Shown: positions 1,001-38,584 of the stretch, in pieces
Layout of the letters: each line of letters opens with the position of its first letter
How positions within the stretch are numbered: the stretch's first letter is position 1
Origin: Lingula anatina
Taxonomy: Eukaryota; Animalia; Brachiopoda
Direction of reading: 5' to 3'
DNA length: 64,000 nucleotides
NCBI GenBank assembly: GCA_051362555.1
Contig: CM120643.1
Coordinates: 8,556,001 to 8,620,000, forward strand
The notes under the pieces: generated by a model
What the model was told of the DNA's origin: nothing
What the model saw: the letters and a program-made list of their open reading frames with translations, nothing else
The model's database searches: none
Program-made: the position numbers and the translations under genes

Positions 1001-4000
1001 ATGGACGCTGATGAGCTAGTATTTTTCGTTAATGGAAAGAAGGTATTTCGAATTTAATACGCGGTCACGTACTTATTGTCATCTATTACTGTTCTTTAGA
1101 TGAACTAAGAATTGTTTCTTAAACTGACCATAACTGTATCTACTGGAGAAAATACGGAATGCATTCTTGACAATATTTAACTCAGTTTTGGTTAAAAGTT
1201 CATATTTTCAGCAACGACTAGGGGAGACCGGGGCTAGTTGGCCCAGTTAGACACTTTTGGCCTTGAAGAGCCAACTGGGCATGAGTTAGAGTAACAAAAG
1301 TGGTTTTGAAGTAAGCACCATGAAGTAAGCTACGTATGCAACGTCATTATTTTTCAAATATAATGCCAGATGGCTCACAATTTGACGAAAAACGCTATTG
1401 ACGTCAGGGGGCCAACTTGCCCCGTCGCGGGTCAAGTTGGCACCCGGGTCGGGGCAAGTTGGCACCCTATACTTAAATGCAGTATTAAGCAGGTTTTTAA
1501 TAAATGAAAACGAATAATAAATTTTCATTTTAAAAGAAACTAACAAATTCAGTCTGAAACTGGTAATTATTTAACAAACCATTAACTTTGCTTTAACAAT
1601 GGTCTATAGCTCTGTTGCGCGCAAAGGATTGTGGTCTATATGAGGGTCCAACTTGCCCCGAGCCAAGGGGGGCAACTAGCGCCAGGTGCACAATTTTTAT
1701 ATTTAAGGATTGCAGCCGTTTATAGTGCAAGAATGGACTGCGATAAAACATTTTTGTAAAATTTCAAACAATTAGCTTTAGTTTGATGCCCTATACGTAT
1801 ACTTTATTCGATCAAAAGCATATGAAAATAGATTTTTAAATCTCTTAAACAAAATTACTTTTAGGTGCAGAAATCGTTTATTTGGACTCACCGCTTAAGT
1901 AAAACTTTTTAACGTCCGACACTTCCTTGGCATTGTAGGCTACGGTCACATTACAAGAGCAAGTGGCCAATTTTTTTTTTACCTCGTAGTTACTTTTTCA
2001 TAAATTGACGCGGGGGCAACTTACCCCGGGGTCCAACTAGCCCCGGTCTCTCCTACTGCACAGAATGGCAATTTCTACAGAACGTTTTTTTGCATAAGGG
2101 TGCAATGCGTACGTGATATAGGCATTTATGTTATATACGTATCAGTAACATACCTTTTTACCAGGGCGACAGATTGATTTTCCACAGATATTCACAGATA
2201 TGTCTACAGCATAAAATGTCCACAATAATAACTGCGACCCTGGTAGAGGGTACCAGTAACACTGCTTAAAGAAGCAACATAGGCCTATCTATAATCTAAT
2301 TCAAATAATTAATTTTTCACAGTCCTAAATACAAGAGCTACCTGGCTTGATAACAGATAAACTACAGGAGGCAGATTTCGTTAAATAAACATCTTTTCGC
2401 GAAATCCAGTGTGAAAAATTGTTCAATAACATGAACATCTGACGTCATAACTTTTAGATCATAGAAAAGAACGCCGACCCGGAGACGACACTGCTGCAGT
2501 ATCTGCGTAAAATACGTATCCTTTTGGACGTGCAACATACGAAACCATCAGCGCATAAAGTTATAACATCAAATTGTACTCATCGCACTTCGTCGTTTGC
2601 AAAACCATGACGATCTCATTCAGTTAAGCTGACGGCACTCAGCGAGAGACCCCACAGTGTTGGATCGGTCTACATGGACTGAGCGTGTCTCTGGGAATTT
2701 GCCCTTTTCTCGTATCTCTCTTTTCCTTGCTACAAATATTTATGTATCCTTTACTCCACGTATCAGTGCGTCTTCCTGGCACCAAACTTGGCTGTGGAGA
2801 AGGAGGATGCGGTGCATGCACAGTGATGATATCAAAGTACGACCAGGAACAGGACGAAATATTGTATCCTTACACGTTACTGTTATTTCCATGGGTCTTT
2901 CCTATGTAACCTTTATGATAAGTTGATTTTATACAGATTTATTTTCCCTAACTGTTGACTTGTCATTATGCATCCAATGCGTGTCTTGTTCCAATATGCT
3001 CTCTCCATGGTCTCGCTGTCACTACAGTGGAGGGGATTGGTAGTACGAAAACGAGGCTACACCCAGTTCAGGTATGGTGTGAAAAAGTAGAAGACATACA
3101 TGTACTGTGAATAATAATAAAAAAAATCATCCCTGATACATCTTTCATTCAAAAACAACCGTACCGGTATGGTCAAATTGAAGTTGTATATAATGCTTTT
3201 TAAAATATCATATGGCAACTGTAAACAGTTACATGCGAGCAAGTAATAAATCTTGGAATTATACCTGTCTCCAAGAAAATTTTTATCACTGAGATCTTTA
3301 ATAAGACATCGTTGCAGATAGTTGCCTTACTTGAAGCACAGTGCGGGGTAAAGCTGTATGTTATTCTGGAAAGCTACAATACAACTATTATATTTTTGTA
3401 TAACCTATTTAAGTACTGTTTTGCTAACTCTGTGGTCCTTAAGATTTAAGATTGGCTTAGGTCCGTCATTAATCCCATACCTAAAGGTGATGGTGTTAAT
3501 TTATGCGATCCACTAGAATATAGAGGAATAATATTATCATCTATTCTGAACAGGAGATTATCGAAGTGGGCCGAAGATAATGAAATAATAGTTGACGAAC
3601 AAAATGGTTTTAGACAAGATCGTGGGTGTTTATATCACATGTATGTAATGTCTAGTATTATAGAAAATAGTTTAAAGCAAAAGCAGAGCATATACGCGTG
3701 TTACATCGATGCAAGAAAAGCATTCGACAGAATTAATAGGTCTCTTTTATGGTATAAATTATTTAAACTAGGAATACGCGGAAATTTTATGAATTCCCTC
3801 CAAGTTCTATATGATAACCCAAAGTGCTATAACTATAAAACAGGTTTCTTTGACATTGAAACTGGAGTAAAAAACAGGGGTGGTTGCTGTCACCTTTATT
3901 CTTTGACATTTATATTAATGATATGGTACATGATCTTAAAGCTCTGGGTAAAGGCATTAATGTAAATGATGAGCTGATCTGCTCGCTCCTTTATGCAGAT

Positions 4001-7000
4001 GACGTGTTTTTGGCCAAAAATGAGAAGGATTTACAGTCAATGCTTGATGTAGTGCACAAGTGGTGCTATAAATGGCAGTTGACTCTGAATGAGGACAAGA
4101 CCCAGAAAGTTCATTTTAGGTCACCTAAAATACCTAGAACAAATTACGTTTTTAAATGTGGCAATTTTATAGTAAATATTGTTGAAAAATATAAATTATA
4201 AATGGCAGTTGACTCTGAATGAGGACAAGACCTAGGTAGTTCATTTTAAGTCATCTAAAATACCTAGGACAAATTATGTTTTTAAATGTGGCAATTTTAT
4301 AGTAAATATTGTTGAAAAATATAAATTCTTGGGTATGTGGTATATTGAGCACTTTGATGCGAATAAGACGGTATCATGTACAGCTAAGTCTGCAAGCAGA
4401 ACTCTAGGTCTTCTGATTGCAAAATGCAAGGTTTGTGGGGGCATGTTCTATGCATGCTTTACGAAATTATACGATGCACTTGTAGCTCCTGTGTTAGAAT
4501 ATGCTTCTGCTATATGGGGACTACAGGAATTTATTCAGATTAATGCTGTTTTCAATAGAGCTTGCAGGTATTTTTTGGGCGTGGGTAGGTACGCGCCAGC
4601 CGCTGCCTAGCGTTCTGAAATGGGATGGACTTCGCCTTTTGAAAAGCAGTTAATTAATGTGACAATTTTTTGGTGTAGATTAGTTAATATGGAGTGTAAT
4701 AGGTTAACTAAAAAGGTGTTTTTATGGAGTTTACGTGTATCAAACAATGGAAAGAAAAATTGGATAACTAGGGTTAAAGGTAAATTTAGTGATCTGGGAG
4801 TAAGCCATCTTTACTTTACTGACACTGATATACCCAAGACTAGCAAACTGAATTGTGTTAGGGAAAGTGTAGCTTTTGAATGTCACTCCGATTGGTGGGC
4901 GAAACTATGGGATGATACCCCACGCAGAAATGGAGATGGAAATAAGCTTGGGCTATTCAGATTGTTTAAGCAAGACTTGGTAGTTAGTGAATACGTTAAG
5001 AAACCAACTTTATTGCTCAAGGATCGGCGGGCATTGGCTAAACTGAGATGTGGGGTGGCCCCACTCAGAATAGAAACTGGACGGTATGAAAAACTTCCAA
5101 TCCTGGAGAGAACGTGTATACTCTGTGAATCAGGTTGTGTTGAGCATGAGATTCATTTCTCAATTAATTGTCCATTTCTTAATGATCATCGTACTGATTT
5201 AATGAGAACTGCTAAATGTTTTAAGCCGGATTTTGATTTATTGGATGAACAAAGCAAATTTCTTTTCCTGATTGACGGTCCGAAAATGATTTTTAGCACT
5301 GCCAAAGCCTGTAGACATTTCTTAGGATTAAGAAGAGATTTTATATATTTAAACTGTAATTAGTTTTTAGTCTCTCATAGTTCTCTATAGAACTGCCTTG
5401 TTGTAACGATTGTTTTAACTCTTATTGTTTTTATTTTTATCTTTATGGGTGACACTTTAATAAAATAAACTGAACTGAATGCACATTATTTTTAATGACG
5501 ATATCATTTGCCATCTTAGGAGATGATAGCCAAGTCCCACGGCACACAGTGTGGTTTCTGCACTCCAGGAATGGTGATGTCAATGTACACGTTACTAAGG
5601 AATAAGCCAAAGCCAAAAGAGGAGGAAGTGGAAAACATATTCCAAGGTACCGATTAAATCATGTTTCTTTGCAACCCCACGAATGAAAATATGTGCACTA
5701 TTTGTTTAGATATTTAATATTTATGCAATAACATTACGTTATTTTAATTTACCCAACATTATCTAATGCTATATAATATAACTTTACACTATTCTTTTAC
5801 TAGAGAGACCTTTCAATAAAAGCAGCCATCACCAGTCAAATTTCGAACACCATATTTGTGTTTGTCCTTTATTTATAGTTTCACTTGGGTTAATGAGGAG
5901 ACATAAAAACCACGTATTCCAATCCTTGAACAGCCGCGGCATAGTACACAACAGTTATAAATTTAAAAAATGGAATAGCTTGAATATCTGATGTTCATTG
6001 CGTTGTACGCAAAGTGTGTGGATACGTTTTGTATACATGTTAGCACTGAAGTTGGTATTGAAGATGCATATTATACAGGTCCTTTCTCTTCTTTCTCTTG
6101 ATAAGTGACTCTTGAGATACATGTGTACTTATTGACCAGCTCATTGGAATATTCATGCTATTCAGTCACACAGTTCTTGGTCATGCCTTCGCTTTCGCCA
6201 TGAATATGTAATTGAACATTAAGCTACGGTTTTAAAATGTCGATCCTTTTAGGAAACCTTTGCAGATGCACTGGCTACAGACCTATCCTTGAAGGATTCA
6301 AGACTTTCAGCAAAGACGAACCCTGCTGTATAGGAACCAAATGTTGTAAAAATCAGCCAAGTAACAAAGAGCATTTTCTTGATGCCGCTGAACCATGCGA
6401 CTTTGTGCCCTTCGATACGACCCAGGAACCAATATTCCCCCCTGAATTAAAAGTAAGCCCAAAAATGTTTATTGAGATATATTAAATTTATATTTCATCG
6501 GTCGTGTTTAGTAAATTCAACTCTGTGACGAACAATGTTAAAACGTTCCGTTGTGCAAAATAAAATTAAATCTTGCACAATTGGACCATTTTGCCTTTTT
6601 ACTTTTATCTTTGCAGATTTCGAATGGATTCGGGACAAAGTTTCTAACGTTCAAGAGTGAGAGGGTTACCTGGTTACGGCCTGTGTTCTTGAAGGATCTT
6701 CTGGAACTGAAATCCAAATATCCCAATGCTAGGATTGTTATTGGAAACACAGCTGTTGGTAGGTGATTAAAATTCTATTCCATCCCTATATCACATATCT
6801 TGTTACATTTTTGTATTTTGCAAAGAGAGTTGTCTAAGTTAAAGAGGGTTGTATTTTAATGTATTCCAGTAGGCCCCATGATAGGGAATCGATAAACTCA
6901 TTTTGATATACCTATGGCCTTCTATATATATGTGGACAAAGAGGAAAAACGTAGATGGTGTTGAAGGCATTGTTATCAAATGTTCTCCTTTGCCGTAGGT

Positions 7001-10000
7001 CGTGTCTATTACAATGTGTCTTTGTGAAGGGCATAATTTGTTGCACTCTCTAACAGAAGGCGTGACATAAATTTTATGCAAAAGCTCTGGCTGGACCTCT
7101 TTGTTTTACTATCAAATAAAACCAATTATTTCTACGCGGTATAAAACCCTTGTAACTCTGCGAAGTGCCCTCTGCTAAACGCACGTGGCATACAGATGAT
7201 CTGTCTCCACTCATGTCTGGTAAATAAGTCATGTGTTTTGGAAGGGTTTTCCAAAACTGTGCACATGAAAATCCTAGCTATCACAGTGGAGCCAGCAGTT
7301 TTAACTTAAAAGGTCGGAGCATTTTTAAATGCTTAAAAGAATCTTGAATGCCGTGAAAGGGACTTTTCGGGGACTTGCTCAGATTTCATCACAGAGCCAC
7401 AGCAGAGAAAGGTGTGCACATTTTTTCTGGAAAATATATGTTACTTTCTAGTGATATATCAATCTTTGGCCCTGGTATAGAGTACGTTTGTTAGTATTTT
7501 TGCATTCCAAACAGTTGTTTGTTTATGGATATTGTTCTTTTAACCCTTTTAAGGGTTGGATACAAAATACAGAAAAGCACATGCCCAAGTTATGATTGCT
7601 GCGACACACGTGCCAGAATTACATGAAGTCGCAGTGGATGACACAGGGATCCATATTGGTGGCGCAGTTACCCTTGCGAGATTAGGCGAGATTTTGACTG
7701 AAACCATCAAGAATACAACAGGTAGACAATACATGATGAAATACAGTGTTTTTGTTTTAATACAGTATTCTATGAAACCTTTCATTCAACTGTTTTTTCA
7801 TTCAACTGTTTTAAATTCTACTTCGAAGAAATGGTCAACTTGAATCTGCCTTAGGACTAAATGTTATGAATAAAAAAAAACATCACATATTAGGCTTTTA
7901 AAATGTTTTATGACCTGCGTAAAAACACTGTCCTGGGTATACTATTTTCAACTTCATTTTGTCTGAAATATTGTAATCAAAACCAATGTCTTTGCAGAAT
8001 ACAAATACAAGACCTTGGTAGCCATGCGGGGGATTATAAATGAGATTGCAGGACATCAAATTCGTAATGTAGCCGTGCGTCTCTCAAATGTTTGTTTTTC
8101 GATTTATATTGTATAACATTTAGAAAAAACTGTCGTTAACTATATCAGATAAGCCGCAGAAAGAAACAATACTATGTATTGCAAGAACACCGGCAACAAG
8201 ATGGGTTCTTTTTTAAAATTATTACCAGTGAAAGATATGTAAGCCAACAACTTGTCCTATTTCATACATAAAAACCTACGTTACGCTTGAAAACCAATTT
8301 GATTTCAGTCTTTGGCTGGGAATATTTTGTGGACACATCACAATTCCGACCTCGTCCCTCTCCTGATGGCTACGGGATCCACGATAACCCTGATATCGCA
8401 AGGTACATGAATTGCAATTTCTCCCCATACCAACGGACGCAAGAACCTTATGGTTTCATGCATAACTATCTTCTTGCTCGGCAACATTTTCAGTTATGGT
8501 ATATGTATATTGACCACTATTGACATAAATACTGTCATTTGAAGAGAAACGTTCTATGTTTTTAGTGAACGCCAACAATTTAAAAATATTGATGAGTTCT
8601 GCCTTTTCCAGTTACGTAGTACTTTAAGGATATTTCTACCCTTCGCCAAAATCTCCTTATTTGCTGCTATTGGATAACAGATAAATCTTCTATCCTTAAG
8701 AATTTTGCTTCTGTGCATGACCACACTGTATATTTTCCAATGCATATTTTAATGTATGTAATTAAATTTTTATTTTTAGAGGGTGGCCAGAGAAATGCTT
8801 TTTTGGACAACACTTTTTACATCAGACGCGGAAATTGGAATATTAAACCGGATGAGATTGTTTTGTCTGTTTTCATCCCTTTTTCCAAAAAGGTTAGCTA
8901 TATTTTTGCCCTATCAAGGTTTAAAGATGTAATTTGATTGTTTTTCCTAGTTTGCAGTTTGCATTAATATAACATGATACACAAGGGTGTGTTTACCTAT
9001 ATTTTGTCAGTGTGAATGTTGTTTTTTAATTAAAGTAAATTGTGAGTGATGTGAATTTTAAAGGTGGAAATTTTAAGGTCAAATTAAAATATGATTAAAA
9101 TGTTTTCCAGAATGAATTTGTGTTCGGATACAAGCAGGCACAGCGCAGAGAAAATGCAACAGCAATAGTGAACGCTGGGATGAGAGTTCTGTTTGAAGAT
9201 GGAGCCAATATTATTAAAGAAATGCAAATTGCCTTTGGTGCCATGTCTGAAACATCTTCGTTGGCCATAACAACAGCTAGGAGATGTGTGGGGAGGTATA
9301 CTGGCGTGGTTTCTTAACTTACCTATGAATAACTACGATTAGATATGCGACAGACTAGTAGTAGTTTTCCATGAACGTATTTCACATTTTGTGTTTTGGG
9401 GTATGTTGGGTAGTTTTGTAATTTAATGCTACTCTTTCATGTTAAAATAAACTGGTAACAACATGTACATTAGACGTGTTTTCTTTTCATTACAAATATA
9501 GAAATGTATATCATGACCAAGGCTGTATAAATTTTGTTATAAATTTCAGGTTATTTGTATTTGACGTCGAGGTGAAAACGTCAGAAATCTTTACAAGCGA
9601 TTTTTCTTCTTTGTTTCTTCTTTCTTCTTTGTTTTCTTTTTTGTAACGACCTATTTGAATTTGCCACTGACCTTTATTTAGTCATGCAGATATGGCAGTC
9701 TTGTTGTCTAGTTACAGGCTAATCTTGTTTCTTGCCATTTTTCTTTTTCTTGTGTCCGATTGACTGCAAACTAAATTCTGTTAAAATAACCTGTTATATT
9801 TTCAGAAAATGGGAAGACCAGCTGACATCAGATGTAGTCCAGTGGCTGGCGGAATACTTCCATTCACCACCAGAGGACATTGGTGGTCAGATGCCCTACA
9901 AGAGAGCACTGGCTTGCAGTTTCTTTTTCAAGTTTTTCCACAGGGTGCAATTAGAGTTGTGCAAACAGGTACATTCACAATTTCTTACCTACATGTACAA

Positions 10001-13000
10001 AATCGTCTTTACAAAATTGTAAAGAAACTAGTTTGAAAAGAAATTTAGTTAAAGGGCAAAATATGTTCTACGCAGTTAGTTGGGTACATAAAAAGATTTC
10101 GAAAGCAATTCAAATTCAAATTTACAACCAAAATTCATTGTACATTTTAGTCTGGGATGGAAGATGCAACAGTATCACCCCGGCAAACACTGGCACTTCC
10201 CAGTCTGACACGAAGCATCAGCCGAGGTACACAAGTGTTTGAAGAGGTCTCTCCTGACCAGCCAAAACACGACGCCGTTGGACGCCCATTGCAGCACAGG
10301 GCGAGCTTGCAACACGCCACCGGAGAGGCTCAGTATTGTGACGACATGCCACTGATTGACGGTACTTTTTGAAGCTTTCGGTTTTTTAACCAATGTGTTT
10401 TTTTTTTCAGCATTTGATGATTATTTTTATCATTTTGTCTCAACTGCGGATCAACAACACGTTTTATTTTGATCCCCTGTTATTTACCGGTACAATGTAT
10501 CTATGCATCTTCTAGTATATTTATCTATCGGTCTGTCTGTCCGTCTGTCCGTTCGTTCGTCCATCCATCTCTTTTCCACATTTGATTAGGTGAGCTGCAC
10601 TTGGCATTGGTGACTAGCACCAGAGCCCACGCCAAGATCCTCTCCATTGACACTAGTGAAGCACTTGCTTTACCTGGAGTAGAGGCATTCTTTGGCCACG
10701 AAGATGTACCAGGACATAATATAAAGATAGTTCTGACAGTTGGGGAGGAGATATTTGCTTCAAGGGAGGTACTGTATTGGTTTACTTGTACATGTACCGG
10801 GAAAATTGCTGAAACGTATTGGTTTATTTTGGTAATGGGGTGTATGTATTTCACAAAAAAATGTGTCTTTTTTATTTGGATTAGTTTTTATTGCTGAAAT
10901 CGGTCAGCCTATGATGAAGAGTCGACTGTGGACCATTGGTTAAAGAGAACATCAATTGAAGTAAAAACCATCACTGCACTGATATGTACTGGTAGAATCA
11001 AGGAGGGGCTTGAGAGGGGGGTAATTCTATATTTTTAAAGACACTTGCAATGCAATTAATCAAAATCACAGGAATTAGTCTTGTTTCTGATTAGTTCGCC
11101 TCCCATCTTAAAATTTGCTCCCTACAGTCCTGTACTTCAATATTGTAGGTGACGTGTTATGGCCAGGTGATAGGTGCCATAGTGGCTGACACCAAGACGC
11201 ATGCGCAGAGAGCAGCGAAGGCCGTAAAAATTGAGTACGAAGACCTTCCAACAGTGTTCACAATAGAGGTAACATAACTTAGTGCTATAGAATGTTTCTT
11301 TGGATTTTGTAGTGGTAACAAAAACAGAGAGAAAACAAGTCTTCTTTTTGAACTTAAGTAAAGTTTTTTTCAACAATTAGCATAACCCTTAGCAAAAAGA
11401 AAAAATTGGAGCAATATTGCAGCAAAATTGCGGCAACGAGTTCGCAGTAGTTTGCAAGAAATAAATTATTGCAGCAAATTTACTGCAAATATGCAAGAAA
11501 TAATTAATTGCAGTTTGCAGCAATATTGCAGCAAATTTGCTGCAAATTTGCAGCAGGTCTGATATTTTGCTAGGGGAAGTTACGGTATGTAATTAGGGTT
11601 TTAAAGTTAACAGACGGCCAATTTATAGGAAGCAATTGCCAAAGAGTCTTACTACCCACACGAAGCGAAGGCTCTCATCAAGTCAGGTGATGTAGAACGT
11701 GGCTTTGAGCAGGCTGAGCACATCTTAGAAGGAGAGGTCAAAGGTGGGGGGCAGGAACATTTTTATCTGGAGACGCATGCAGCTAGAGCCGTACCTAGAG
11801 GAGAAGATGGAGAAATTGAAATATTTTGTAGTACGCAATCTCCGTCGAATTCTCAGGTAATGTTACAACTCGCTTCTCAGTGCTTCACTGTGATGTGTAC
11901 TTAACAGGATTGGACTCTTTCGATTTAAGCCCGATTGGACTATAGTTACAATTTGTTGTCAAAGGACGCAGTCTTTATCTACTATCTAGAAAACGATGGG
12001 GTTGATGTTATTGTACATGTGCAGTAGGAGACAGCAACTAAATTTATTTTGTCTATTTTTTTTGTTTTAACTAATTTTTGCAATCCTTTACCTGCTTTGA
12101 AGAGTATTTTTATTCTAACATTTCATGGAAGGCTGATGTTGCTAGAGCCCTTGGCTTACCGATGAACAGAGTGTGTATCAGGACAAAACGGCTAGGTAAG
12201 TATTTAAGAAGATGTGTAAATCCTCTGACTGAGATAAATAAGTTTCCACTTGGATAGAGCAATTGGTCTTTAGCCACATTCAACAATTAAGTTGAATAAT
12301 CTTCTGAGTAAATATAGCTGTTCATAGCATACATGTATATATCCAATGGTATGGGTGTAACGTGTTTGTGACATGTACATGTAGCATCTATTCTGTGACT
12401 TTATGAACCTTTCTTCGTTTTGACGCTTTGTGGCAATGATATTTTTGGCATTTGTATCTCTACAGGTGGGGGTTTTGGAGGAAAGGAAACCCGTTATGTG
12501 ACTCTGATACCGGTAGCTATCGCTGCTTTCAAGTGAGTGGAACCCAACATTTTCTTCCAAAATTTGTTGTTATTTAGCAGTTTATATACGTTTTTAATAC
12601 AGAGAAGAGCTTTTACCATATTTTGAAGATATGTTCCGAATTTTTATGTATAATGAAAAAAAAAATCCAGGAAGCTAAGAATTCGGTTCATGGGTGACAG
12701 GGCTATATTTACAGGCCATGTGCAAGCCGGTGTAATGTGACAGAGAGTCCCCCATAACAGAGAGTCCCCTTCCCATTGATTAGTACAAATAAAATGAAAC
12801 AGAGAAGACACTTTTCAAACCAACTCTATGCAGTGTTATGTCAAGTCATCATGTGGAATATACTGTTTTACACAGGTTGAACCGACCAGTCCGTGGTATG
12901 TTGGATAGAGACGAAGATATGCTGATATCAGGGGGACGACATCCTTTCCTTGGAAAGTACAAGGTACATGTACATGTATGCTGCCATTTGGTTAGAATGT

Positions 13001-16000
13001 AGCTCAGTTGCTAGCTGAATCCACTGTCATTTTGGACTCGGAATGGCTTCTTTTAAGTTTCAAATATTTACTCACTGACCTACATGCACAGGTAAAAGAC
13101 TTCTCTGTCAAAATAATGAAGATATCCTGTCTTGTATACCAGTCAATGTTGCTGATTTTTTATTGTTTTGGTGAGTTTCAATCGTATTTAAGCAACTCCG
13201 ATATTTAGCTTGTGTCTATGTGTAGCAACTGTTGTGATTCATTTCCAAAATAAGTGAAACTGATACAACCAGGGATTGGTTTTATCTTGTGTTTAATTGT
13301 CCACAAATCAAAATGCTCGTTTCAGGTTGGCATTGACAGCGTTGGTCGTTTCAAAGCCTTGGACGCCACAGTCTACTTGAATGCAGGAAATACTTCCGAT
13401 TTATCACCAGAAGTGAGATCTAACTCCTGAATGCTTTCTATATTTATTGCAATATACTGATCAAAAAGGAAATTATATACATGTAAATGACTACAAAATA
13501 AGTGTGCGATGTTTGTATACAAAATGTAATATATATTTCGAAACATTATTTTCTGTACGTTTTTTTTATGCTACAGGTAGTAAGTGTATCATTATACAGT
13601 TTGGACAACTGTTACCATATTCCAAACACTGTACTTACTGGTTTCCTGTGTAAGACCAACCTGCCCTCAAACACGGCATTCAGGGGCTTTGGTGCCCCTC
13701 AGTCAATGCTGGTCATGGAGAATATAATTGAAGATGTCGCCGTCAGTCTGAATATCCCCTCACATAAGGTAGGTATGAGATGTAACAAAGAATCTGTATT
13801 GTAGGTCTGTATATAGCGGAGCGTTGCAGGAAGACATAACTATTCCACATCCAATTTTACCACTTTTATCATACAGTTTTAACATGGACATTTGTGTTTT
13901 ATATTTATGCTTCACTTATTCACATTACAACACCGTAAACTGTTTATTGTAACTGGATCAGGCCCTAAACTCTGGTTTTGACTAACCCAGTACGTACGTA
14001 CAACTATAATGATATGAATTGTATTATAACCTTAATATTGTACGCAATAAAACCATTCAATATTGTTTTCATTTGTTGAAGGTCCGTGAGATAAACATGT
14101 ACAATGAAAATGACCTAACGCCAAAGGGTATTCGACTGATAAACTGTGCTATAGACCGTTGCTGGAATGAAGTCATCCAGCAGAGTGAATTTTTTCAGAG
14201 AAAAGAAGACATTGCCAAATTTAACAGGTAATATGGCATCAAAAATAGCAGAATCGCCTTTAAACTACTCCACAATAGGCACAGCAGTAGAGTGATAATC
14301 AAGCGATTCGATAGAGCGCTAGAAGAAATAAGTTTAAGTTCTTGTCGAGGAGATAAAAAAGTTGTAATAGTTACCGAATATTCGATCCGTTTTTACAGAG
14401 GCAGCCTTTGAAAAACGTTGCCACAGTCTTTTGTTACATTTACCGGTGCATTTGATAATCTTGATCAATCATGAGATAAGTTACATAATTATTTGAAGAG
14501 CAGTCTCAGTCAATTGACACACAACTATAAATTTTTGCAGTAGCGGATTTTAAATGTATACGTATTTGTATTACAACTGGCTTGAAATTTGTAGATATGG
14601 GTAAAGGGCCTACCTCTATACAGTCAGCATTTTCCACTGGTCGCTGAAACAGGCTGAAAAACTATTGAGATACATTTATTACATTATATTGGAACTGCTT
14701 AACTTTATTGCACTAAATTAAAAGAGATCTTTCGTCTTATCTAGTCGGAATTCAAATGGTATTTAAAAAGCATCTGTCTGTATTTTTCTCCCAAGGCTGT
14801 TCAATATTACAGAGGGATTAACTTAGATTAAAATCAATAACACAACAAAGTAAAATTTTCAAGGTTAACTCTGCTTTCAGAGACAACCGATGGAAGAAGC
14901 GTGGAGTTAGTTTGATTCCAACCAAGTTTCTGATTTCTTACTATAATGAGCGTTTTCTAGAACAGGTACATGAATCTATAAAATGTCCCCTTATATCATT
15001 GTACTGGTAATTGTTCCTCAAAGAAAAGGGTACCATACTGTGCTTAATTGACTTTATTTTTACATGTGCATTCTGTAACATTAGTCAGTCCTTTTCACGT
15101 ATTTTTAATTTTTTATTTTGTGTTTACAACTAATGATAAATTCAATACTTTATAAATAGCATATTCAAATAAAATTCCCTTTTCTGTTATTTTGTATATA
15201 ATTATATATTATACATCAAACGTGACTGGTATACCGGTAGACATTGTCTTACAACTTATCTCGTTTTGTCTGATTACTAGGGGGCAGCACTTGTTCATGT
15301 GTACCAAGAGGACGGTTCAGTTCTGATAACACATGGTGGTGTAGAGATGGGACAAGGATTGCACACTAAGATGATACAGGTATGACAGTATAAAAGTTGC
15401 AGACTACGCGGCAGTATAGCCATAAAGGTGCCGTGATTGCATGCTTTGGGTTTGCTTTTCTAAATAAACAGGAAAGGTTCTTCGGTTGTAAGTCAGTGTA
15501 CTGGGTATTTATGCAATTTAGGGAGGATTAACACCAAGAAGAGCCGAGGTCTAGTAAGGTTGCGACCTAACTAGGGCGGACCTACATGAAAGGAATACCG
15601 CTAATCCTGTAATGGTCTCGCCGCCTCTCACACGCCTCCCCACGCGTTGTCCCTCGACCGGTTGAATTGAGCCGAGATCTAATTTACTGTGCCCCTGCAT
15701 TATTATCGATACAAATAAGTAAACGTGGTATTATCGTCCAAGGTTGCCAGTCGAGCGTTACAGTTGCCAGTCCACAAGTTCCACATCAATGAAACCACCA
15801 CTAGTACCGTTCCGAACACCACTGCCACAGCTGCCAGCACAGGATCGGATCTCAACGGCATGGCTGTATTGGTGAGTTGATAACATAGGGCCGTGTACAT
15901 CTATAGGCTGAGGAAAGTGCTTGCGGACAGTTCTTGAAGGCTTACAAGGCATGTAAGTACGGTCTTAGTACCACCTGTGATAATAGGCGTCGCTTAAAGG

Positions 16001-17889
16001 AAACACTAAGGCTTACAGGGAACTAACAGGGGACACTAAGGCTTATACCCTTTTTAGCTTTAAGATTAAATGTTTCCCTCCCCCCTAAAGTTCTGTTTGG
16101 GTTTGTGGCATCTACTACGAAATGTTTATTATTTGTCTTACTGTAACGAAAGGAAAACTTCTAAAGCATGAAGTTCGATCATCATGATCAAGTCGTCTGG
16201 TGAGTCATTTTCAAAAACCAGTACATATTTTTTGTGTAAATGATTGCGTTGAGCTCACATGAGTTTTGTTTATTGGCATTCAAATAACCATTGATACGAA
16301 GGGTACCTGTTAAGTTGTTAAAAAGAAAACGGTTAAGCTCCCTAAAAACAGTGAGAACTAGTACACACACGTAACTGTATACATATCGCATCTATTACAG
16401 AATGCATGTAAGACGTTAAGACACCGACTTGAGCCGTATATAGCCGGTAATCCTGGTGGATCATGGGAAGATTGGGTAAGTGATATATGCTTGGGAATGA
16501 TTATAATTAGTATATTAACGGAAATGAAAACTTATGAAACATGAATTTGATCAGTACAAGTACAGAGCACATTCAAACCTTGAGCACAGTTTTGTCAATT
16601 CGTTATCTCTATGTTACGGTAGAAATAATCCTGTGAAAGGACGCTCGGTTTATGATACACAAAATAAACTATATTTTATATAAAAAAGGTTTCAGTATAT
16701 TAAAATGAATGTTATCTATCGTAATTGCAGGTTAAAGCTGCCTATATGGACAGAATCAGCCTGTCTGCAACAGGTTACTACAAGTAAGTCACGTCTTCAA
16801 ACGTGTTTGTATCGGTAATGTTTAAAAACACAAATGGACCTAAATTGATAATGTTTAAAAACACAATTGGACCCAAATCGGTAGTGTTTAAAAACACAAA
16901 TGGACCCATACCTTCAACCAATCTGCTAAATTAAATGCAAGTCTGTGTTAAAATGCTTACGTTATGTTATTGCATCGATCCCAAACTTTAGAGGCAATAT
17001 TTTGTTTATAACCTACATGTACGTGTGGGTGAATAATGTATTTCAACTTACAATTTTTTTTAGTATTTCCCTAATATAAACCGTTTGTTAAAACCTTCGG
17101 AATAAGGGGGACCTCCTCTCTCCCTAACGAAAATTGCATAGTAAGTAAATTTATATTAAGAAACACTATGTAAACAAAAGCAGTACAAAATGAAATGAAA
17201 TTTTGATTTTTTATTAGGCTGCAATTGCAGTCCAAACCAGGCGGTTGACATTTGTTCTTCACTATTAAAGCTTTCTGTCTTCTGAAAGTTCGGTTTCCAC
17301 TAGTGAAATTGCGTTGCTTCCTTGTTATATTCAGGGTTCCCGATACCTGGGACGATAACTATGTACCTGTAGAACGGGAGCAAACCACGCAGAGGTACCA
17401 CACATACGGCGCCGCTTGTTCCGTGGTTGAAATAGATTGCCTTACCGGAGACCATGTGGTAATGTGCTATAATTTATACTCACTGTTTTAGTGACAGTGT
17501 CGGTTTTGTGTTTATCCTTTTTTTAATAAAGATATATAACCTTGATCTGACTTCAGTTAAAAAGGTCAACATATTAATAAAAGAGTTTCCCTCTTCTGTA
17601 ACAGCTAATGATCGCCATTAAACTTACTTTGGACATAATTCTAAAAGTATGAAATGTTTATTTCCATTATAGTTTATTATTCAATCTGTAGTGTTTATTT
17701 ACCCATTGTTATACAATTGCGTTGGTGTCTAGCCTAAAGTCAAAGAAGAGTAAATATATATACTTACGTTCCATAAATATCTCTTTATAACATCTAAGGT
17801 GTTGCGAACAGATATCGTTATGGACGTTGGAAGAAGTTTGAATCCAGCCATTGATATTGGACAGATAGAGGGAGCCTTCGCGCAGGTGA

Positions 17890-17922
<33 letters not shown>

Positions 17923-19378
17923 TACAAAAGAAGAAAATTAATATAATTCATCAAAACTATTGGATGGGCTCCTATAAGTTACAGAATTGTTGTTCTTTAT
18001 TCATTGGGCAAATATTTTGGAGAGTGCTCTGTTTTTTACATAAGGATAACTTAATAGCAAGCCATCAGCTCTTTTAAAAAGCAATAGCATTTATAATTAT
18101 TGTAGAATTCACTCCCTGGACACCACATTAAGCCGCACTGAAATGGTAAAGCAAAGTCTATGAATAAAATTAAACAAAAATGTTGTTTTATGGATGCTTG
18201 TAACACTCCCAACCAGTGTATCATTTCATTTTCTGAGAGGATGCATTTGCTTTTAGGGCTATGGGCTATTCACCATCGAACAACTGAGATACTCTTCTGA
18301 GGGAAGACTGATAACTAATGGTCCAAACAAATACAAGATCCCTGGTTATGGAGACATCCCTGTGGAATTCAATGTTTCTTTACTGAAAGGTGCTTCCAAT
18401 CCTAAAGCGGTATATTCTTCCAAAGTAAGGATACACAGAATCATTAAGAGTTATCCAACATTTGATTTTGCAATTTGTTGGTTGTGTACAGAGAATCCCA
18501 AAATACGTTATTGTAATATCACAAGTTGAATATGACATCTGTAGTAAAGAGAGCAATTTTTCTTTGCATTATCTCGCATCCAGGTATTAATCTAAATTTG
18601 ATATCGTTTACATGTTACAAAAAGTACCTTTGAGTAGACTTATACCGTCCGGCTCTTGTTGTTGACAGGGTATAGGTGAACCCCCTTTGTTCCTGGCGTC
18701 CTCAGTGTTCTTTGCCATCAAGGATGCCATATCGTCTGCTAGAGCCGAGTCCGGTTTGGAAGGGAGGTTCCGATTGGACAGTCCAGCCACAGCTGAGAGG
18801 ATCAGGATGGCATGTGAGGATCAGTTTACACGCCAGGTAAACGTGCATTGAGAAAGGTTGTTTATGTATTGGCCACGAAAACAGTTGTTCTTAGGCAATG
18901 TACTCGCATTGATAAATGCTACATTTTAATTTGATAACTGATTTATATGAGGTCAAGACATCAGTAATTCGTCAATCTCTATTTTTTTTTAATCTGTTAC
19001 TAGACTTATTCTAGTTTGCGGGGTCTCCCTCTCCTAGACTTCAGCTGGTCTCACTTTAACTATGTAAAATAAGGCTGCTACATAGTATTACCTGCTGTAG
19101 TATTACCTGGCAGTATTACCTGGCAGTTAGTTTTGAAAGTTTTTTGCTTTAAGTAGCAGAAAAAAAAAATAAAAAGTTGCCTACAAAATGGAAAATTTTA
19201 CATGTTTTATACACGACACTGTTTTTGATTTCCTTTATGCGATTCAGAACCAGAATATTTCATTTCAACCAACTGGCACTGGTACATACTGACTTAAACC
19301 CCCCCCCCCCCCTTCGCTTTGTTATAGTGCTCACCAAACAGCCATCATACCTTGAGGCCAAGGTTTTTAGATGTGTGA
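1001..19378 (+). CDS. XDH: Xanthine dehydrogenase/aldehyde oxidase family molybdo-flavoenzyme, copy A (33 coding exons, ~1331 aa, intact)
   Basis: Manually spliced exons: 1001-1042, 2458-2515, 2767-2863, 2963-3071, 5520-5646, 6253-6452, 6617-6758, 7554-7721, 7998-8074, 8309-8402, 8780-8892, 9111-9295, 9806-9968, 10151-10361, 10590-10768, 11149-11268, 11629-11856, 12132-12195, 12466-12532, 12876-12963, 13326-13412, 13577-13768, 14082-14227, 14881-14965, 15281-15379, 15743-15871, 16401-16475, 16731-16783, 17335-17458, 17799-17885, 18257-18424, 18669-18836, 19328-19378 (sum 3996 nt, open). Motifs: [28 protein letters not shown] and [17 protein letters not shown] (2Fe-2S), AGHQIRNVA (FAD), [43 protein letters not shown] (Moco). 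The symbol denotes the family; function may be aldehyde oxidase-like. Confidence 0.95.
1221..2053. mobile_element. Non-autonomous DNA transposon (Tc1/mariner-pogo-like MITE), copy A intron 1
   Basis: TIRs GGGGAGACCGGGGCTAGTTGG ... CCAACTAGCCCCGGTCTCTCC, TA target duplication, internal GGGGCAACTT/AAGTTG repeats. Empty site CAACGACTACTGCAC in copies B and D. Confidence 0.9.
2151..2252. mobile_element. ~100-bp MITE with a ~9-bp TSD
   Basis: TIRs TACCTTTTTACCAGGG / CCCTGGTAGAGGGTA flanked by (t/c)CAGTAACA. Absent from the other copies. A related left end TACCCTCTACCAGGGCGAC...GATATTCACAGATATG lies at ~52424-52475. Confidence 0.75.
2516..2766 (+). other. U12-type (minor spliceosome) intron 2, GT-AG, copy A (paralogs 22666-22910, 43370-43625, 63277-63521)
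   Basis: 5' site GTATCCTTT and a TCCTTTAC branch box ending 12 nt before the end of the intron, no polypyrimidine tract in between. Conserved in all four copies. Confidence 0.92.
2864..2962 (+). other. U12-type intron 3 with a non-canonical 3' end (GT-TG; GT-AC less likely), copy A (paralogs 23008-23106, 43723-43820, 63619-63717)
   Basis: 5' GTATCCTTA; branch box TTCCCTAAC (2944-2952) followed by TGTTGACTTG|T CAT TAT. No in-frame AG. The TG junction gives ...[12 protein letters not shown], colinear with XDH ...KIV-HFSANACL. Confidence 0.85.
3376..5479 (+). mobile_element. 5'-truncated, degenerate non-LTR retrotransposon (LINE; RT plus C-terminal CCHC domain, possibly RTE-X-like) in copy A intron 4
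   Basis: RT motifs [33 protein letters not shown]; C-terminal LRIETGRY...CILC...EIHF...C. Frameshifts and a stop, an internal ~130-bp duplication (4068-4327), 3' AATAAA and a (CTGAA)2 tail. Absent from the paralogous introns. The clade call is tentative. Confidence 0.9.
11386..11576. mobile_element. MITE with CCCTTAGCAAAA/TTTTGCTA(A/G)GGG termini and GCAGCAAATTTGCTGC palindromic repeats (shared: 29398-~29596 truncated, 50983-51189)
   Basis: Terminal inverted repeats and internal palindromic arrays at the same intron-16 position in copies A, B and C, so it predates the duplications. Confidence 0.8.
16811..16910. repeat. ~30-bp minisatellite (ATCGGTAATGTTTAAAAACACAAATGGACC): 3 units in A, 4 in B (~37170-37300), degenerate in C
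   Basis: Tandem repeats directly visible in intron 28. Confidence 0.85.
17891..17921. repeat. (AAT)n microsatellite next to the exon-30 donor (also ~38553-38583; short at ~58543)
   Basis: Directly visible. Confidence 0.9.
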
Positions 19379-21094: not shown

Positions 21095-21778
21095 TAATTT
21101 TCATTTCGTGATTATAATCTATTAGCCTTATAGCATAATTATTTTTACTTTCCCCGTGCCGAATTTTAATATCCCGGTGACTCCCTTCGCCACAAAAAGT
21201 TTTCATGTAATTATTAAACAGAGCAAAAATGTCTCTCTATTTCTGTAGTATTATAAATACAAGGTTATCGCAAATATTTACTTTCGGGAGTCATCGGGGT
21301 ATTCCGTACACGCGAATGCAGCATTATCAGTACATGACCTCTGTCCTACAATAAAGACGCAGAACCAATCAGTAGCAAGTTTCCATAACACATAACTAAG
21401 GGCCAGTCTCACTCTTGCTGCTGGTAAGATCAGACCTCAAAATTTGTCGGAGAGTTTTACTTCCAATTTTGCAAAAGAATTACCAGGTAAGCACTCCGAA
21501 TCTTACGCTTATTTTCATTCTTACATACAGGTACGTTGTCTCTTGTTCTTGCTTTCTCTCTTTCCATTTACTTTCTTTTCTCTTTCACCACATTTAATAA
21601 TTACATCTCTCTTTTCATTTAATTTTCATTACGTAATTATAATTTATTAGCCTTATCGCATAATTATCTTTACTTTCCTAGTGTCGAGTATCCCGGTGAC
21701 TCCCTTTGCCTCAAAAAATTTCATGTACTAATTATTAAACGGAGCCAAAATGTCTCTCTATTTCTGTAGTATTATAAT
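21095..21778. repeat. Pair of ~165-bp direct repeats in the intergenic spacer (~21095-21257 and ~21620-21778; also in the B-C and C-D spacers)
   Basis: AATTTTCATT...TATCCCGGTGACTCCCTT...AATGTCTCTCTATTTCTGTAGTATTATAA occurs twice per spacer. Confidence 0.8.
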
Positions 21779-21784
21779 AACCCG

Positions 21785-22275: not shown

Positions 22276-25200
22276 TATTTAACTCAGTTTTGGTTAAAAG
22301 TTCATATTTTCAGCAACGACTACTGCACAGAACGGCAATTTCTACAGAACGTTTTTTTGCATAAGGGTGCAATGCGTACGTGATATAGGCATTTACGTTA
22401 TATACGTACCAATAGCACTGCTTAAACTTGCAACATATCTATAATCTAATTCAAATAATTAATTGTTTACACTCCTAAATACGAGAGCTACCTGACTCGA
22501 TAACAGATAAATTATAGAGGGCAGATTTCGTTAAATAAACATCTTTTTGCGAAACCCAGTGTGAAAGAAATTTCAATAACTTGAACGTCTGACGTCATAA
22601 TTTATAGATCATAGAAAAGAATGGCGACCCGGAGACGACATTGCTGCAGTATCTGCGTGAAATACGTATCCTTTTGGACGTGCAACATACGGAACCATCT
22701 GTGCATAAAGTTATAACATAGCGTGAAATTGTACTCATCGCACTTCGTCGTTTGCGAAACCATGATCAGTTTAGCTGACGGCACTCAGGAGAGACCCCAC
22801 AGAGTTGGATCGGTTTACGTGGACCGATTGTGTCTGTGGGAATGTGCCCTTTCTCGTCTCTCTCTTTTCCTTGGTACAAATGTTTATCTGTCCTTTACTC
22901 CACGTATCAGTGCGTCTTCCTGGCACCAAACTTGGCTGTGGAGAAGGAGGATGCGGTGCATGCACAGTGATGATATCAAAGTACGACCAGGAACAGGACG
23001 AAATATTGTATCCTTACACGTTACTGTTATTTCCATGGGTCTTTCCTATGAAACCTTTATGATAAGTTGATTTTATACAGATTTATTTTCCCTAACTGTT
23101 GACTTGTCATTATGCATCCAATGCTTGTCTTGTTCCAATATGCTCTCTCCATGGTCACGCTGTCACTACAGTGGAGGGGATTGGTAGTACGAAAACGAGG
23201 CTACACCCAGTTCAGGTATGGTGTGAAAAGGAAGAAGACGTACTATGAATAAAAATAAAAAATCATCCCTGATACATCTTTCATTCAAAATCAACCGTAC
23301 CGGTATGGTCAAATTGAAGTTGTATATAATGCTTTTAAAATATCATATGGCAACTGTAAACAGTTATAAGCAAATAATAAATTTTGAAATTATACCGGTC
23401 TTCAAGAAAATGTAAATCACTGAGATCTTTCATAAAACCTTGCTTTACTTAAATTGCCATACTTAAATCACAGTACGGGGTAAAGCCGTATGTTATGTTA
23501 GGAAGCTGTTTGTTATTTCTTTGATGACGATATCATTTGCCATCTTAGGAGATAATAGCCAAGTCCCACGGCACACAGTGTGGTTTCTGCACTCCAGGTA
23601 TGGTGATGTCAATGTACACGTTACTAAGGAATAAGCCAAAGCCAACAGAGGAGGAAGTGGAAAACATATTTCAAGGTACCGACTAAAACCATGTAATCCA
23701 ATCCTTGAACATCCGCGGCATAATACACAATAGTTATACATTTTAAAATTGAAATATCTTGAATATTCATTGCGCAGTGCCCAAAGCGTGTGTAAACATG
23801 TTAGTACTGAAGATGCATATAATAGTAATACAAGTCAATTCTTTTGAAAAGTGACTCTTGTCCTGTCCACGACTGATCATGCCGATTGTGATACTTATTG
23901 ACAAGCTCACTGGAATTGTCATGTCATTCAGTCACACAGTTCTTGTTCCTGCCATCGAATGGGTGTGTAATTGAACATTAACCCACGCTTTTAAAACGTC
24001 GATCCTTTCAGGAAACCTTTGCAGATGCACTGGCTACAGACCTATCCTTGAAGGGTTCAAAACATTCAGCAAAGACGAACCCTGTTGCATGGGATCCAAA
24101 TGTTGCAAAAACCAGCTAAGTAACGAAGGACAGGTTCTTGGTGCCGCTGAACCATGCGAGTTTGTGCCCGTCGATAGAACACAAGAACCAATATTCCCTC
24201 CTGAATTGAAAGTAAGCACAGAGATGTTTATTGTGAGAAATATTGAATTTACATTCCATCGGTCATGTCTAGTCAATTTAGTCCCGTGCCGTGTCTAGTC
24301 AACTGAACCCCGTGACGAACAATATTAAAATGCTACGGTGTGAAAAAAAAAATGTTGCATAGTTAGACTATTTTGCATTTTTTTACCTTTGCAGATTTCG
24401 AATGGGTTTGGGACAAAATTTTTAACTTTCAAGAGTGAGAGGGTTACCTGGTTACGGCCTGTGCTCTTGAAGGATCTTCTGGAACTGAAATTCAAATATC
24501 CCAATGCTAGGATTGTTATTGGAAACACAGCTGTTGGTAGGTGAAAAAGATTCTATTCCATCCCAATATCACATATCTTGTTGCATTTTGTATTTTGTAA
24601 AAAGGCTTGTCTAAGTTAAAGAGGGTTGTATTTTAATGTATTCCAGTAGGCCGCATGATAGGGAATTGATAGACTCGTTTTGATATGTATTGACAATACA
24701 TATGGCCTTCTATATATGTGGGCAAAGAGGAAAAACGTAGATGGTGTTGAAGGCTTTGTTATCAAATACTTTGTCGTTAGTTGCATCTCTTACAATGTGT
24801 CTTTGTGAAGGGCATAATGTGTTTTACTCTCTACCAGACTGCGTAACGTTAATTTTGTGCAAAAGTTCTCGCTGAACCTCTCTGTTTTACTGTCAAATAG
24901 AACCAATTATTTTTACCCAGTAGTAAACCCTTTGTCTTCACAGAACTTTTATCTCTGCGAAGTGCCCTCTGCTTAACGCACGTAGCGCACAGATGATCTG
25001 TCTCCACTCATTTCTGGTAAATAAGTCAAGTGATTTGGAAGGGTTTTCCAAAACTGTGCCCCTGAAAATCCTTTCATTCAGTGGAGCTAGCAGTTTTAAC
25101 TTCAAAGGTCGGAGCATTTAAATATCTTGATTGCCGTGAAAGGGACTTGTTGGGGACTTGCTCAGATTTCATCACAGGGTCACAGCGCAGAAATGTGTAC

Positions 25201-28487: not shown

Positions 28488-28505
28488 TATCTATCTATCT
28501 ATCTG

Positions 28506-38552: not shown

Positions 38553-38584
<32 letters not shown>

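What the first reader, a model, noticed from the sequence alone, without database searches (positions are those of the whole stretch)
2864..2962. U12-type intron with a non-canonical TG acceptor, kept in all four paralogs
Seen: the intron starts GTATCCTT and has a near-consensus U12 branch box TTCCCTAAC followed by TGTTGACTTG|TCATTAT, identical in copies A-D. The only nearby AG (2935-2936) is out of frame, leads to a stop and is missing in copy C. Splicing after TG (2962) restores the frame with no indel against XDH ([11 protein letters not shown] vs KIV-HFSANACL) and lies 11-12 nt from the branch A. An in-frame AC (2958-2959) is only 8-9 nt away and would add a Cys. Established: the minor spliceosome places the 3' site largely by distance from the branch point and tolerates odd terminal dinucleotides. 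Inference: this is a rare GT-TG minor intron that gene predictors would mis-model, and it may be a rate-limiting step for expression.
Basis: partly seen in the sequence, partly recalled or inferred. Interest (0 to 1): 0.8.

Follow-up and report, generated by a model that had tools for sequence, protein, structure and literature searches.

The report
Minor-class intron ending in TG, brachiopod
In a cluster of xanthine-dehydrogenase-like genes of a lamp shell, an ancient intron of the rare "minor" class ends in TG instead of the near-universal AG, and the few RNA reads that cross it are cut at that position, so it is most likely a working example of a rare but already catalogued splicing exception.

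Summary
Observation confirmed. Intron 2864-2962 is intron 3 of an XDH/AOX-like gene whose closest named relatives are Lingula anatina proteins. It has a GTATCCTT donor, a TTCCCTAAC box 11-12 nt upstream and a TG end, identical in four tandem copies. It matches the catalogued minor intron 3 of human and mouse XDH (97-nt exon 3). Of 23 scorable animal orthologous loci, 21 end in AG, 2 in AT and none in TG, so TG is derived. Four reads (2 starts) in one RNA run join in the TG register, without the extra codon an AC acceptor would add. That animal's genome is unknown. Copies A and C are intact (dN/dS about 0.26); B has a stop. A public model starts inside this intron, so annotation broke here. A second, independent GT-TG candidate lies in XDH intron 2 of cockroach/termite-type loci, with AG-bearing sister loci (no RNA). 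GT-TG minor introns are known but rare (0.039% of conserved animal minor introns). The scan noted another candidate (LRGUK, other genome). Minor-spliceosome dependence and rate-limitation are untested.

The parts
1001..19375 (+). Copy A, XDH/AOX-like gene, 33 exons, intact 1331-aa ORF; 31 of 32 introns GT-AG, intron 3 GT-TG
   Evidence: spliced alignment; 91% aa identity to Lingula anatina P0002, 56% to oyster XDH P0006
2458..2515 (+). Exon 2 (copy A)
   Evidence: RNA joint 2515|2767 in 8 reads, 6 starts, run X1
2516..2766 (+). Intron 2: U12-type GT-AG (GTATCCTTTT ... ATCCTTTAC ... CAG), phase 1
   Evidence: matches the second MIDB minor intron of XDH
2767..2863 (+). Exon 3, 97 nt, encodes [14 protein letters not shown] of the first 2Fe-2S domain; same length as the exon between the two minor introns of human and mouse XDH
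2864..2871 (+). U12-type 5' splice site GTATCCTT, phase 2
   Evidence: same motif at the same place in 45 animal loci (the motif was part of the search pattern)
2864..2962 (+). Intron 3, 99 nt, U12-type, GT-TG; retention gives a stop in every copy
2944..2952 (+). U12-type branch box TTCCCTAAC (8 of 9 to consensus; candidate branch A at 2950 or 2951)
2958..2959 (+). In-frame AC, 8-9 nt from the branch A; rejected as main acceptor
   Evidence: would add a Cys; not seen in reads
2961..2962 (+). TG acceptor dinucleotide (derived from ancestral AG)
2963..3071 (+). Exon 4 (HYASNACL...HPVQ)
23008..23106 (+). Intron 3 of copy B (gene 21941-39961; in-frame TAA at 31157), GT-TG
43723..43820 (+). Intron 3 of copy C (gene 42054-59984, intact 1331 aa), GT-TG, 98 nt
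63619..63717 (+). Intron 3 of copy D (gene runs off the window), GT-TG, identical to B's

Best explanation
This is the ancient minor-class intron 3 of animal xanthine dehydrogenase genes, whose acceptor changed from AG to TG before these brachiopod genes were tandemly duplicated, and it is most likely still removed at the TG by the minor (U12) spliceosome. Likely mechanism: U11/U12 bind the GTATCCTT donor and the strong TTCCCTAAC box without needing an AG. After branching at A2950/2951 the acceptor is chosen mainly by distance (11-12 nt). The terminal G is kept, so the first-G/last-G contact would survive, and only the -2 A is lost. No AG competes between the branch box and 65 nt into exon 4. 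Shown: the signals, the orthology, the reading frame, the junction register in a few reads and purifying selection on the copies. Inferred: which spliceosome acts, the distance mechanism, and that the RNA-giving allele also has TG. The TG is probably a tolerated, near-neutral change rather than an adaptation.
For: Orthology: human and mouse XDH each have two MIDB minor introns flanking a 97-nt exon (donor CGT|GTATCCTTT), as here. Of 46 pattern matches in 45 metagenome loci, exon 4 was present and in register in 23: 21 AG, 2 AT, 0 TG, all at this exact position. RNA: X1 gives a joint 2861->2963 with two letters between (4 reads, 2 starts). This fits 2863|2963 with one substitution (1 mismatch in 12), against 3 mismatches for a shifted AT-AC and 2 for the other same-length registers tested; no +3 nt form was listed. 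X8 gives the same register for a more distant paralog (3 reads). The X1 haplotype differs from copy A at 7 of 264 exon bases, within the spread among the copies (6-14), so it belongs to the TG-bearing array. A second public assembly reads LLTC (TG, not AG) at this place (P0002). With the donor fixed, TG gives the only indel-free match to 37 outgroup proteins, and 0 of 1589 in-frame pairs are GT/GC-AG. Copies A and C are intact, with pairwise dN/dS 0.26-0.27 (0.09-0.18 over codons 1-165) at dS 0.14-0.15, so the genes stayed under selection while carrying TG. The review PMC3584512 (passages) gives an 11-13 nt optimum, no U2AF requirement, and non-canonical termini that splice 'often with reduced efficiency'.
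Against: RNA support is thin: 4 reads from 2 start points in 1 of 8 runs for the array type. X4 and X5 had no exon coverage. The second lay was swamped by a repeat, and 22 joints were not shown. The RNA animals are not the sequenced one (most reads under 99% alike), and the supporting reads carry a substitution 2 nt before the donor, so their own acceptor is not known. No DNA run was laid. GT-TG is among the rarest subtypes (29 introns, 0.039%, in animals). I recall, without being able to read it, that Dietrich et al. 2005 found most -2 mutants of a U12 intron defective. Copy B has a premature stop. The minor snRNAs of this genome could not be checked (no genome held; none in the window). The spliced alignment was told to allow this TG, so it is not independent evidence for the site; one search is the unbiased test.
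Confidence: 0.85

Rival explanations
1. The TG cripples splicing. The reads come from an AG-bearing allele or paralog elsewhere, and the TG copies make little mRNA or are decaying.
For: The RNA animals differ from the window, and their intron was not seen. Copy B has an in-frame stop. There is some intron-3 depth in X8 and X9 (1.4 vs about 11-12.5, and 0.5 vs 6-7 in flanking bins). AG>TG mutations kill U2 acceptors in humans (PMC2374985 passages).
Against: All four window copies and a second assembly have TG. A and C are intact over 33 exons with dN/dS about 0.26 since duplication. The X1 haplotype is nested within the array.
Confidence: 0.07
2. The intron ends at the AC at 2958-2959, either as GT-AC (adding a Cys) or as a 3-nt-shifted AT-AC intron (2861-2959), which keeps the protein length.
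For: AC is a canonical U12 end. The shifted pair is AT..AC and scores almost as well against outgroup proteins (166.9 vs 167.7).
Against: Reads show no extra codon and fit the shifted form with 3 mismatches against 1. ATTGTATCC is not a U12 donor. GT-AC is disfavoured and 8-9 nt is below the 11-13 nt optimum. All 37 outgroup segments have one length, which the GT-AC form breaks. The 23 orthologous acceptors sit at the TG position.
Confidence: 0.04
3. The junction is right, but it is made by the major (U2) spliceosome as a TG acceptor of the TG-AG tandem kind.
For: U2 introns use TG acceptors within 28 nt of an AG, and A, B and D have an AG 26 nt upstream. AG-less U2 splicing can be independent of a downstream AG (PMC10853781 passages).
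Against: The donor and branch box are U12-type and found only in introns 2 and 3 (6 of 96). The upstream exon ends in TT, not AG. The -26 AG is absent in copy C, lies upstream of the branch box and leads to a stop. The orthologue is a catalogued minor intron.
Confidence: 0.03
4. The TG is a sequencing or assembly error for AG.
For: None found beyond the rarity of GT-TG. No DNA reads were laid, so the base was not checked against raw data.
Against: TG is present in four diverged copies and in an independent public assembly (P0002 starts LLTC, where AG would give LLTS).
Confidence: 0.01

Closest known systems
Minor (U12-type) introns 2 and 3 of human and mouse XDH in MIDB (Olthof et al. 2019, PMC6717393; supplementary rows seen, main text not read)
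   Same: Same gene family, two adjacent minor introns around a 97-nt exon, GTATCCTT donor after a phase-2 codon, U12 branch box.
   Different: The rows do not give the mammalian acceptor. A vertebrate-like locus with the same branch box (L039) and 20 other loci end in AG, whereas here it is TG. The intron is 98-99 nt, against 1180 (mouse) and 1719 (human).
Non-canonical GT-TG U12-type introns (Sheth 2006 PMC1557818 Table 2: 0 human, 1 mouse of 66 non-canonical; Larue and Roy 2023 PMC10639083 Table S1: 29 animal, 15 plant; MIDB count 1 human, quoted in PMC13602164 Table 1; listed among G-type minor introns in PMC8280824)
   Same: Same terminal pair, one change from GT-AG, with U12 donor and branch box.
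   Different: These are annotation-based counts and the passages I saw do not name the genes, so I cannot say whether XDH is among them. Here there is orthologous polarity (AG ancestral), read support and persistence through duplications.
TG-AG tandem acceptors of U2 introns (Szafranski et al. 2007, PMC2374985; abstract and passages)
   Same: TG used as 3' splice site.
   Different: Those are major-class, always alternative and tied to an AG within 28 nt. Here the TG is the only frame-keeping acceptor, in a minor-class intron.
Xanthine dehydrogenase / aldehyde oxidase family (Pfam Fer2, Fer2_2, FAD_binding_5, Ald_Xan_dh_C, MoCoBD_1/2)
   Same: Full domain set, Fe-S cysteines, FRGFG and GEPP motifs conserved.
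   Different: The Arg of the MxRALF motif is replaced in A, B, C and P0002, the Glu of GGKE is Val in C and P0002, and the FAD-domain motifs are altered. These look AOX-like rather than true XDH; that reading of the residues is recalled knowledge, not tested.

Membership tests
U12-type (minor) intron | 5' splice site RTATCCTT | tested here: met
   GTATCCTTAC in all four copies; 6 of 96 introns, only introns 2 and 3
U12-type (minor) intron | Branch box near TTCCTTAAC, 11-13 nt from the 3' end | tested here: met
   TTCCCTAAC, 8 of 9, adenosines 12 and 11 nt from the TG; optimum from PMC3584512
U12-type (minor) intron | No separate polypyrimidine tract between branch point and acceptor; upstream exon does not end in AG | tested here: met
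   10 nt TGTTGACTTG between box and exon; exon 3 ends TT; criteria
U12-type (minor) intron | Position conserved with a catalogued minor intron | tested here: met
   97-nt exon flanked by two MIDB minor introns in human and mouse XDH; same position in 23 animal loci
U12-type (minor) intron | Excision depends on U11/U12/U4atac/U6atac | not testable with these tools
   Needs knockdown. No genome held to look for the snRNAs; none in the window. Larue and Roy report L. anatina as minor-intron rich.
GT-TG subtype of minor introns | mRNA junction follows a genomic TG | tested here: inconclusive
   Junction in the TG register in 4 reads, 2 starts, but the genome of the RNA-giving animal was not seen; TG inferred from 4 copies plus a second assembly
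U2-type TG-AG tandem acceptors (Szafranski 2007) | U2 intron with a functional AG acceptor within 28 nt, TG only as alternative | tested here: not met
   Donor and box are U12-type; the AG at -26 leads to a stop, is upstream of the box and is absent in copy C
Xanthine dehydrogenase proper | Substrate-binding Arg (MxRALF) and Glu (GGKE) (recalled as Arg880 and Glu802 of bovine XDH) | tested here: not met
   Arg replaced in A, B, C; Glu kept in A and B, Val in C (alignment with oyster and fish XDH)
XDH/AOX molybdo-flavoenzyme family | 2Fe-2S, FAD and Moco domains in one chain of about 1330 aa | tested here: met
   1331-aa ORFs in A and C; Pfam domains on the 91-96% identical P0002 and on P0003

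The most novel reading that the evidence does not exclude
The -2 A of minor-intron acceptors is dispensable whenever the branch box is strong and 10-12 nt away, and XDH/AOX genes have repeatedly fixed such weak acceptors in different phyla (TG in brachiopod intron 3, TG in intron 2 of several cockroach/termite-type lineages, AT in intron 3 of another animal) because slower splicing throttles these oxidant-producing enzymes. The near-identical AG/TG pair in the insect loci would then be a ready-made natural test of how the minor spliceosome picks its 3' end.
Probability: 0.12. Interest if true: 0.65.

Novelty: new member of a known kind. Interest (0 to 1): 0.38.

Why it matters
It is a rare natural case of a sole, apparently constitutive TG acceptor. 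In major introns TG has been reported only as an alternative to a nearby AG, so this supports the view that the minor spliceosome chooses its 3' end by distance from the branch point and can do without the -2 A. The ancestral state is known (AG), and a second lineage offers alleles that differ at that base with an otherwise almost identical 3' end, so the cost of AG>TG can be measured directly. In practice it explains a truncated public gene model that has lost its first Fe-S domain. It also suggests that counts of GT-TG minor introns from annotations are underestimates. It does not show a new splicing machine or a regulatory role.

Tried and rejected
No whole genome is held, so other paralogs and the minor snRNAs were not examined; Rfam found nothing in the window. 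No indexed RNA holder was listed; the nine runs came by species label, and 8 of 9 were laid (X6 was not). X4 and X5 had no exon coverage. The second lay (copy C) was swamped by a repeat in intron 4; 22 joints and 26 between-letter rows were not shown, so array-type intron-3 joints there may be hidden. Of 46 metagenome matches, 23 were scored for the intron-3 acceptor. Twenty had no exon 4 within the fetched DNA, and three (L007, L032, L026) had exon 4 out of register or damaged and were dropped. That scan required an RTATCCT donor, so it says nothing on how often the intron was lost or converted. Rejected: upstream AGs (all give stops), downstream AGs (first at +65, out of frame), AT at +4/+7 (out of frame), intron retention (stop in all copies), GT-AC, shifted AT-AC, assembly error. 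A-to-I editing cannot turn UG into AG (established chemistry). Conservation across four copies was rejected as evidence of selection for TG. Dietrich et al. 2005 was not held and is cited from recall only. Literature searches 'U12-type intron'+'xanthine dehydrogenase', 'minor intron'+AOX1+U12 (15) and Lingula+'xanthine dehydrogenase' (54) gave 0 papers. U12+'aldehyde oxidase'+introns (51) gave 2 unrelated titles, and the GT-TG searches listed no title or abstract on this case. The library lacks most subscription papers, and the per-intron data behind Larue and Roy's counts were not seen, so the case may sit in a database.

Full report
What the window is. The window holds a tandem array of XDH/AOX-like genes on the + strand: A 1001-19375, B 21941-39961, C 42054-59984 and the start of D. 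The closest named proteins are Lingula anatina xanthine dehydrogenase/oxidase-like models. Copies A-C are 91-96% identical to P0002, 73-74% to P0003 and about 55% to oyster XDH, so the animal is a lingulid brachiopod. A and C give intact 1331-aa ORFs over 33 exons, and B has one in-frame TAA (codon 854, position 31157). In each copy 31 of 32 introns are GT-AG and only intron 3 is not (that script was allowed this one TG, so it shows that the rest of each gene is sound, not where the site is).

The observation. Intron 3 of A is 2864-2962, GTATCCTTAC ... TTCCCTAAC TGTTGACTTG, followed by TCATTAT, with the same 3' 19 nt in B, C and D. The two candidate branch adenosines are 12 and 11 nt from the TG, within the 11-13 nt optimum given in the review PMC3584512 (passages read). 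A GTATCCTT donor and a U12-like box each occur in 6 of 96 introns of A-C, always introns 2 and 3. In an unbiased test of all donor/acceptor pairs in 2840-2899 x 2900-3029, 1589 were in frame and stop-free and none was GT/GC-AG. The best pair starting with GT was 2863|2963, the only indel-free one for that donor against 37 outgroup segments that all have one length. One non-GT register (2864|2964) scored slightly higher and a shifted AT..AC slightly lower; reads decide against both.

RNA. No indexed run holds the stretch; nine raw-read runs came by species label and eight were laid. In one search (copy A, 90% likeness) run X1 shows intron 2 spliced at GT..AG (8 reads, 6 starts) and a joint from 2861 to 2963 with two letters between (4 reads, 2 starts). 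That is the 2863|2963 junction with one substitution at 2862: 1 mismatch in 12, against 2 for three neighbouring registers and 3 for the shifted AT-AC. The GT-AC form would add three bases, which are not there. X7's depth also stops at 2863 and fits a restart at 2963, but below the listing threshold. X4 and X5 had no exon coverage. Depth in 2888-2949 was 0 in all four. In one search (copy C, 85%) a repeat in intron 4 crowded the tables. The one intron-3 row shown is 3 reads of X8 from a P0003-like paralog, in the same register. Intron-3 depth was 1.4 in X8 and 0.5 in X9 against about 11-12.5 and 6-7 in the flanking bins, and 0 in X2 and X3, which had little exon depth. Repeat-free bins of introns 1 and 4 were 0, and of intron 6 0.44 in X8. 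This is at most a hint of about 10% retention, from mixed paralogs. The main weakness is that these animals are not the sequenced one. X1's haplotype differs from copy A at 7 of 264 exon bases, while the copies differ from each other at 6-14, so it belongs to the array in which every genomic copy seen has TG, but its own acceptor was not observed.

Independent DNA and annotation failure. The NCBI model P0002 is flagged partial and begins [12 protein letters not shown]. This is the translation of the intron's last 11 nt from just after the TAA inside the branch box, 40 of 40 identical to 2952-3071. The Cys requires TG (AG would give Ser), so a second assembly has the TG, and the model has lost the Fer2 domain that P0003 keeps. 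I did not see that scaffold, so I cannot prove that exons 1-3 are on it.

Ancestry. The MIDB supplement of Olthof et al. 2019 (PMC6717393; rows seen, main text not read) lists two minor introns in mouse and in human XDH, separated by 97 nt, the length of exon 3 here. A metagenome scan for exon 3 followed by RTATCCT gave 46 matches in 45 loci of animal DNA. Exon 4 was present and in register in 23: 21 AG, 2 AT (L006, L014, close relatives of each other), 0 TG; as distinct tails, 17 AG and 2 AT. Twenty lacked exon 4 in the DNA fetched and three were out of register. So the intron is ancient, AG is ancestral and the TG is derived. It predates the duplications, after which the copies reached dS 0.14-0.15 with dN/dS 0.26-0.27 (0.09-0.18 in the Fe-S region). 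The genes were therefore making protein while carrying TG (inference). Sharing among copies is not evidence of selection for TG: intron 3 is 90-100% identical among copies, and ordinary introns 22 and 24 have equally invariant ends.

A second case. In the same loci, intron 2 ended in AG in 38 of 46 matches, TG in 4, AC in 1 (L040; not followed up), with 2 too short and 1 out of register. The four TG loci (L019, L025, L026, L029; L025 and L029 identical) end TCCCTTAAC TGAATTCTG. A GTATCCTT donor is visible in L019, L025 and L029, and every upstream AG gives a stop or frameshift. L023 and L043 have the same end with AG. The three TG haplotypes differ from each other at 21-28 of 295 bases and from the AG ones at 21-30, so TG has persisted across diverged lineages. 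An unrooted five-sequence tree groups them, but on unevenly overlapping DNA, so the order of events is not shown. The nearest named proteins are cockroach XDHs (90-91%), a different phylum and a different intron, hence an independent origin. There is no RNA for these loci, and L026 has a damaged exon 4.

Mechanism. From the review: U12 introns are defined by donor and branch box, lack a polypyrimidine tract, do not need U2AF, use Urp/ZRSR2 at the 3' end, and tolerate odd termini, often with lower efficiency. The anatomy fits selection by distance: a strong box, 11-12 nt spacing, a retained terminal G and no competing AG. Non-AG ends go with strong boxes in this small sample. Intron-3 boxes scored 8, 7 and 8 of 9 for the three non-AG tails against a median of 6.5 for 17 AG tails (one-sided p 0.03, sequences not independent), and the insect TG introns score 8 at 10 nt. 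This is suggestive only. The contact between first and last intron G, and the report that most -2 mutants fail (Dietrich 2005), are recalled; the paper was not held. Minor-spliceosome dependence and any rate-limiting role are untested.

What is known. GT-TG minor introns are catalogued: 1 mouse and 0 human among 66 non-canonical U12 introns (PMC1557818 Table 2, passages); 29 (0.039%) in animals and 15 (0.064%) in plants, against 54669 GT-AG, 319 GT-AT and 159 GT-GG in animals (PMC10639083, section 30, passages and Table S1 rows); 1 in human MIDB (PMC13602164 Table 1, passages); and named among G-type introns (PMC8280824, passages). In U2 introns TG was found only as an alternative to a nearby AG (PMC2374985, abstract and passages), although a later study found the downstream AG dispensable (PMC10853781, passages). 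PMC4176328 and PMC7367187 were read as passages and add only background. Searches listed no paper on a TG acceptor in XDH or on Lingula XDH; the library is incomplete, and the per-intron lists behind the surveys were not seen.

Verdict. A real and most likely functional GT-TG minor intron (0.85): a new member of a rare known subtype, with better evolutionary polarity than most and thin read support. Interest 0.38. The recurrence in an insect XDH intron 2, with an AG sister allele, is the most useful lead.

Noticed in passing
L019, L025, L026, L029 (intron 2 end, 97 nt before the matched donor) vs L023, L043: Independent GT-TG candidate in U12-type intron 2 of cockroach/termite-type XDH; sister loci have AG with 28 of the last 30 nt the same.
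   Followed up: partly
L006, L014 intron 3 end: The orthologous intron 3 ends in AT (GT-AT subtype), 10 nt from a TTCTTAAC box, in register with exon 4.
   Followed up: partly
L040, upstream of exon 3: The position expected for the intron-2 acceptor reads AC without an obvious U12 box; donor not seen.
   Followed up: no
window 1001-19375, 21941-39961, 42054-59984: The array copies lack the Arg of the XDH MxRALF motif, copy C has Val for the Glu of GGKE, and FAD-domain motifs are altered, which resembles an aldehyde-oxidase-like shift in a brachiopod (functional reading recalled).
   Followed up: partly
window 31157-31159: Single in-frame TAA in copy B (AAA in A and C): recent pseudogene, allele or sequence error.
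   Followed up: partly
window about 3380-5480 (intron 4 of copy A): Broken LINE-like retroelement with an RVT_1 match (E 1.8e-9) on the + strand, absent from the short intron 4 of B and C.
   Followed up: partly
window 44050-44400 (intron 4 of copy C); 2616-2650 (intron 2 of A): Interspersed repeats that draw RNA reads from elsewhere in the genome: thousands for the first, tens for the second.
   Followed up: no
window about 21940-22320 and 62510-62935: A roughly 175-nt piece around exon 1 / start of intron 1 is duplicated (about 80% identity) in copies B and D.
   Followed up: no
window 16586-23389 vs 57291-64000: The end of A plus start of B matches the end of C plus start of D at 93% over 6.8 kb, higher than most other inter-copy blocks, suggesting unequal crossing-over or gene conversion.
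   Followed up: no
P0003: The public full-length Lingula paralog has an internal duplication of about 74 residues in the Moco domain, possibly an assembly or annotation artefact.
   Followed up: no
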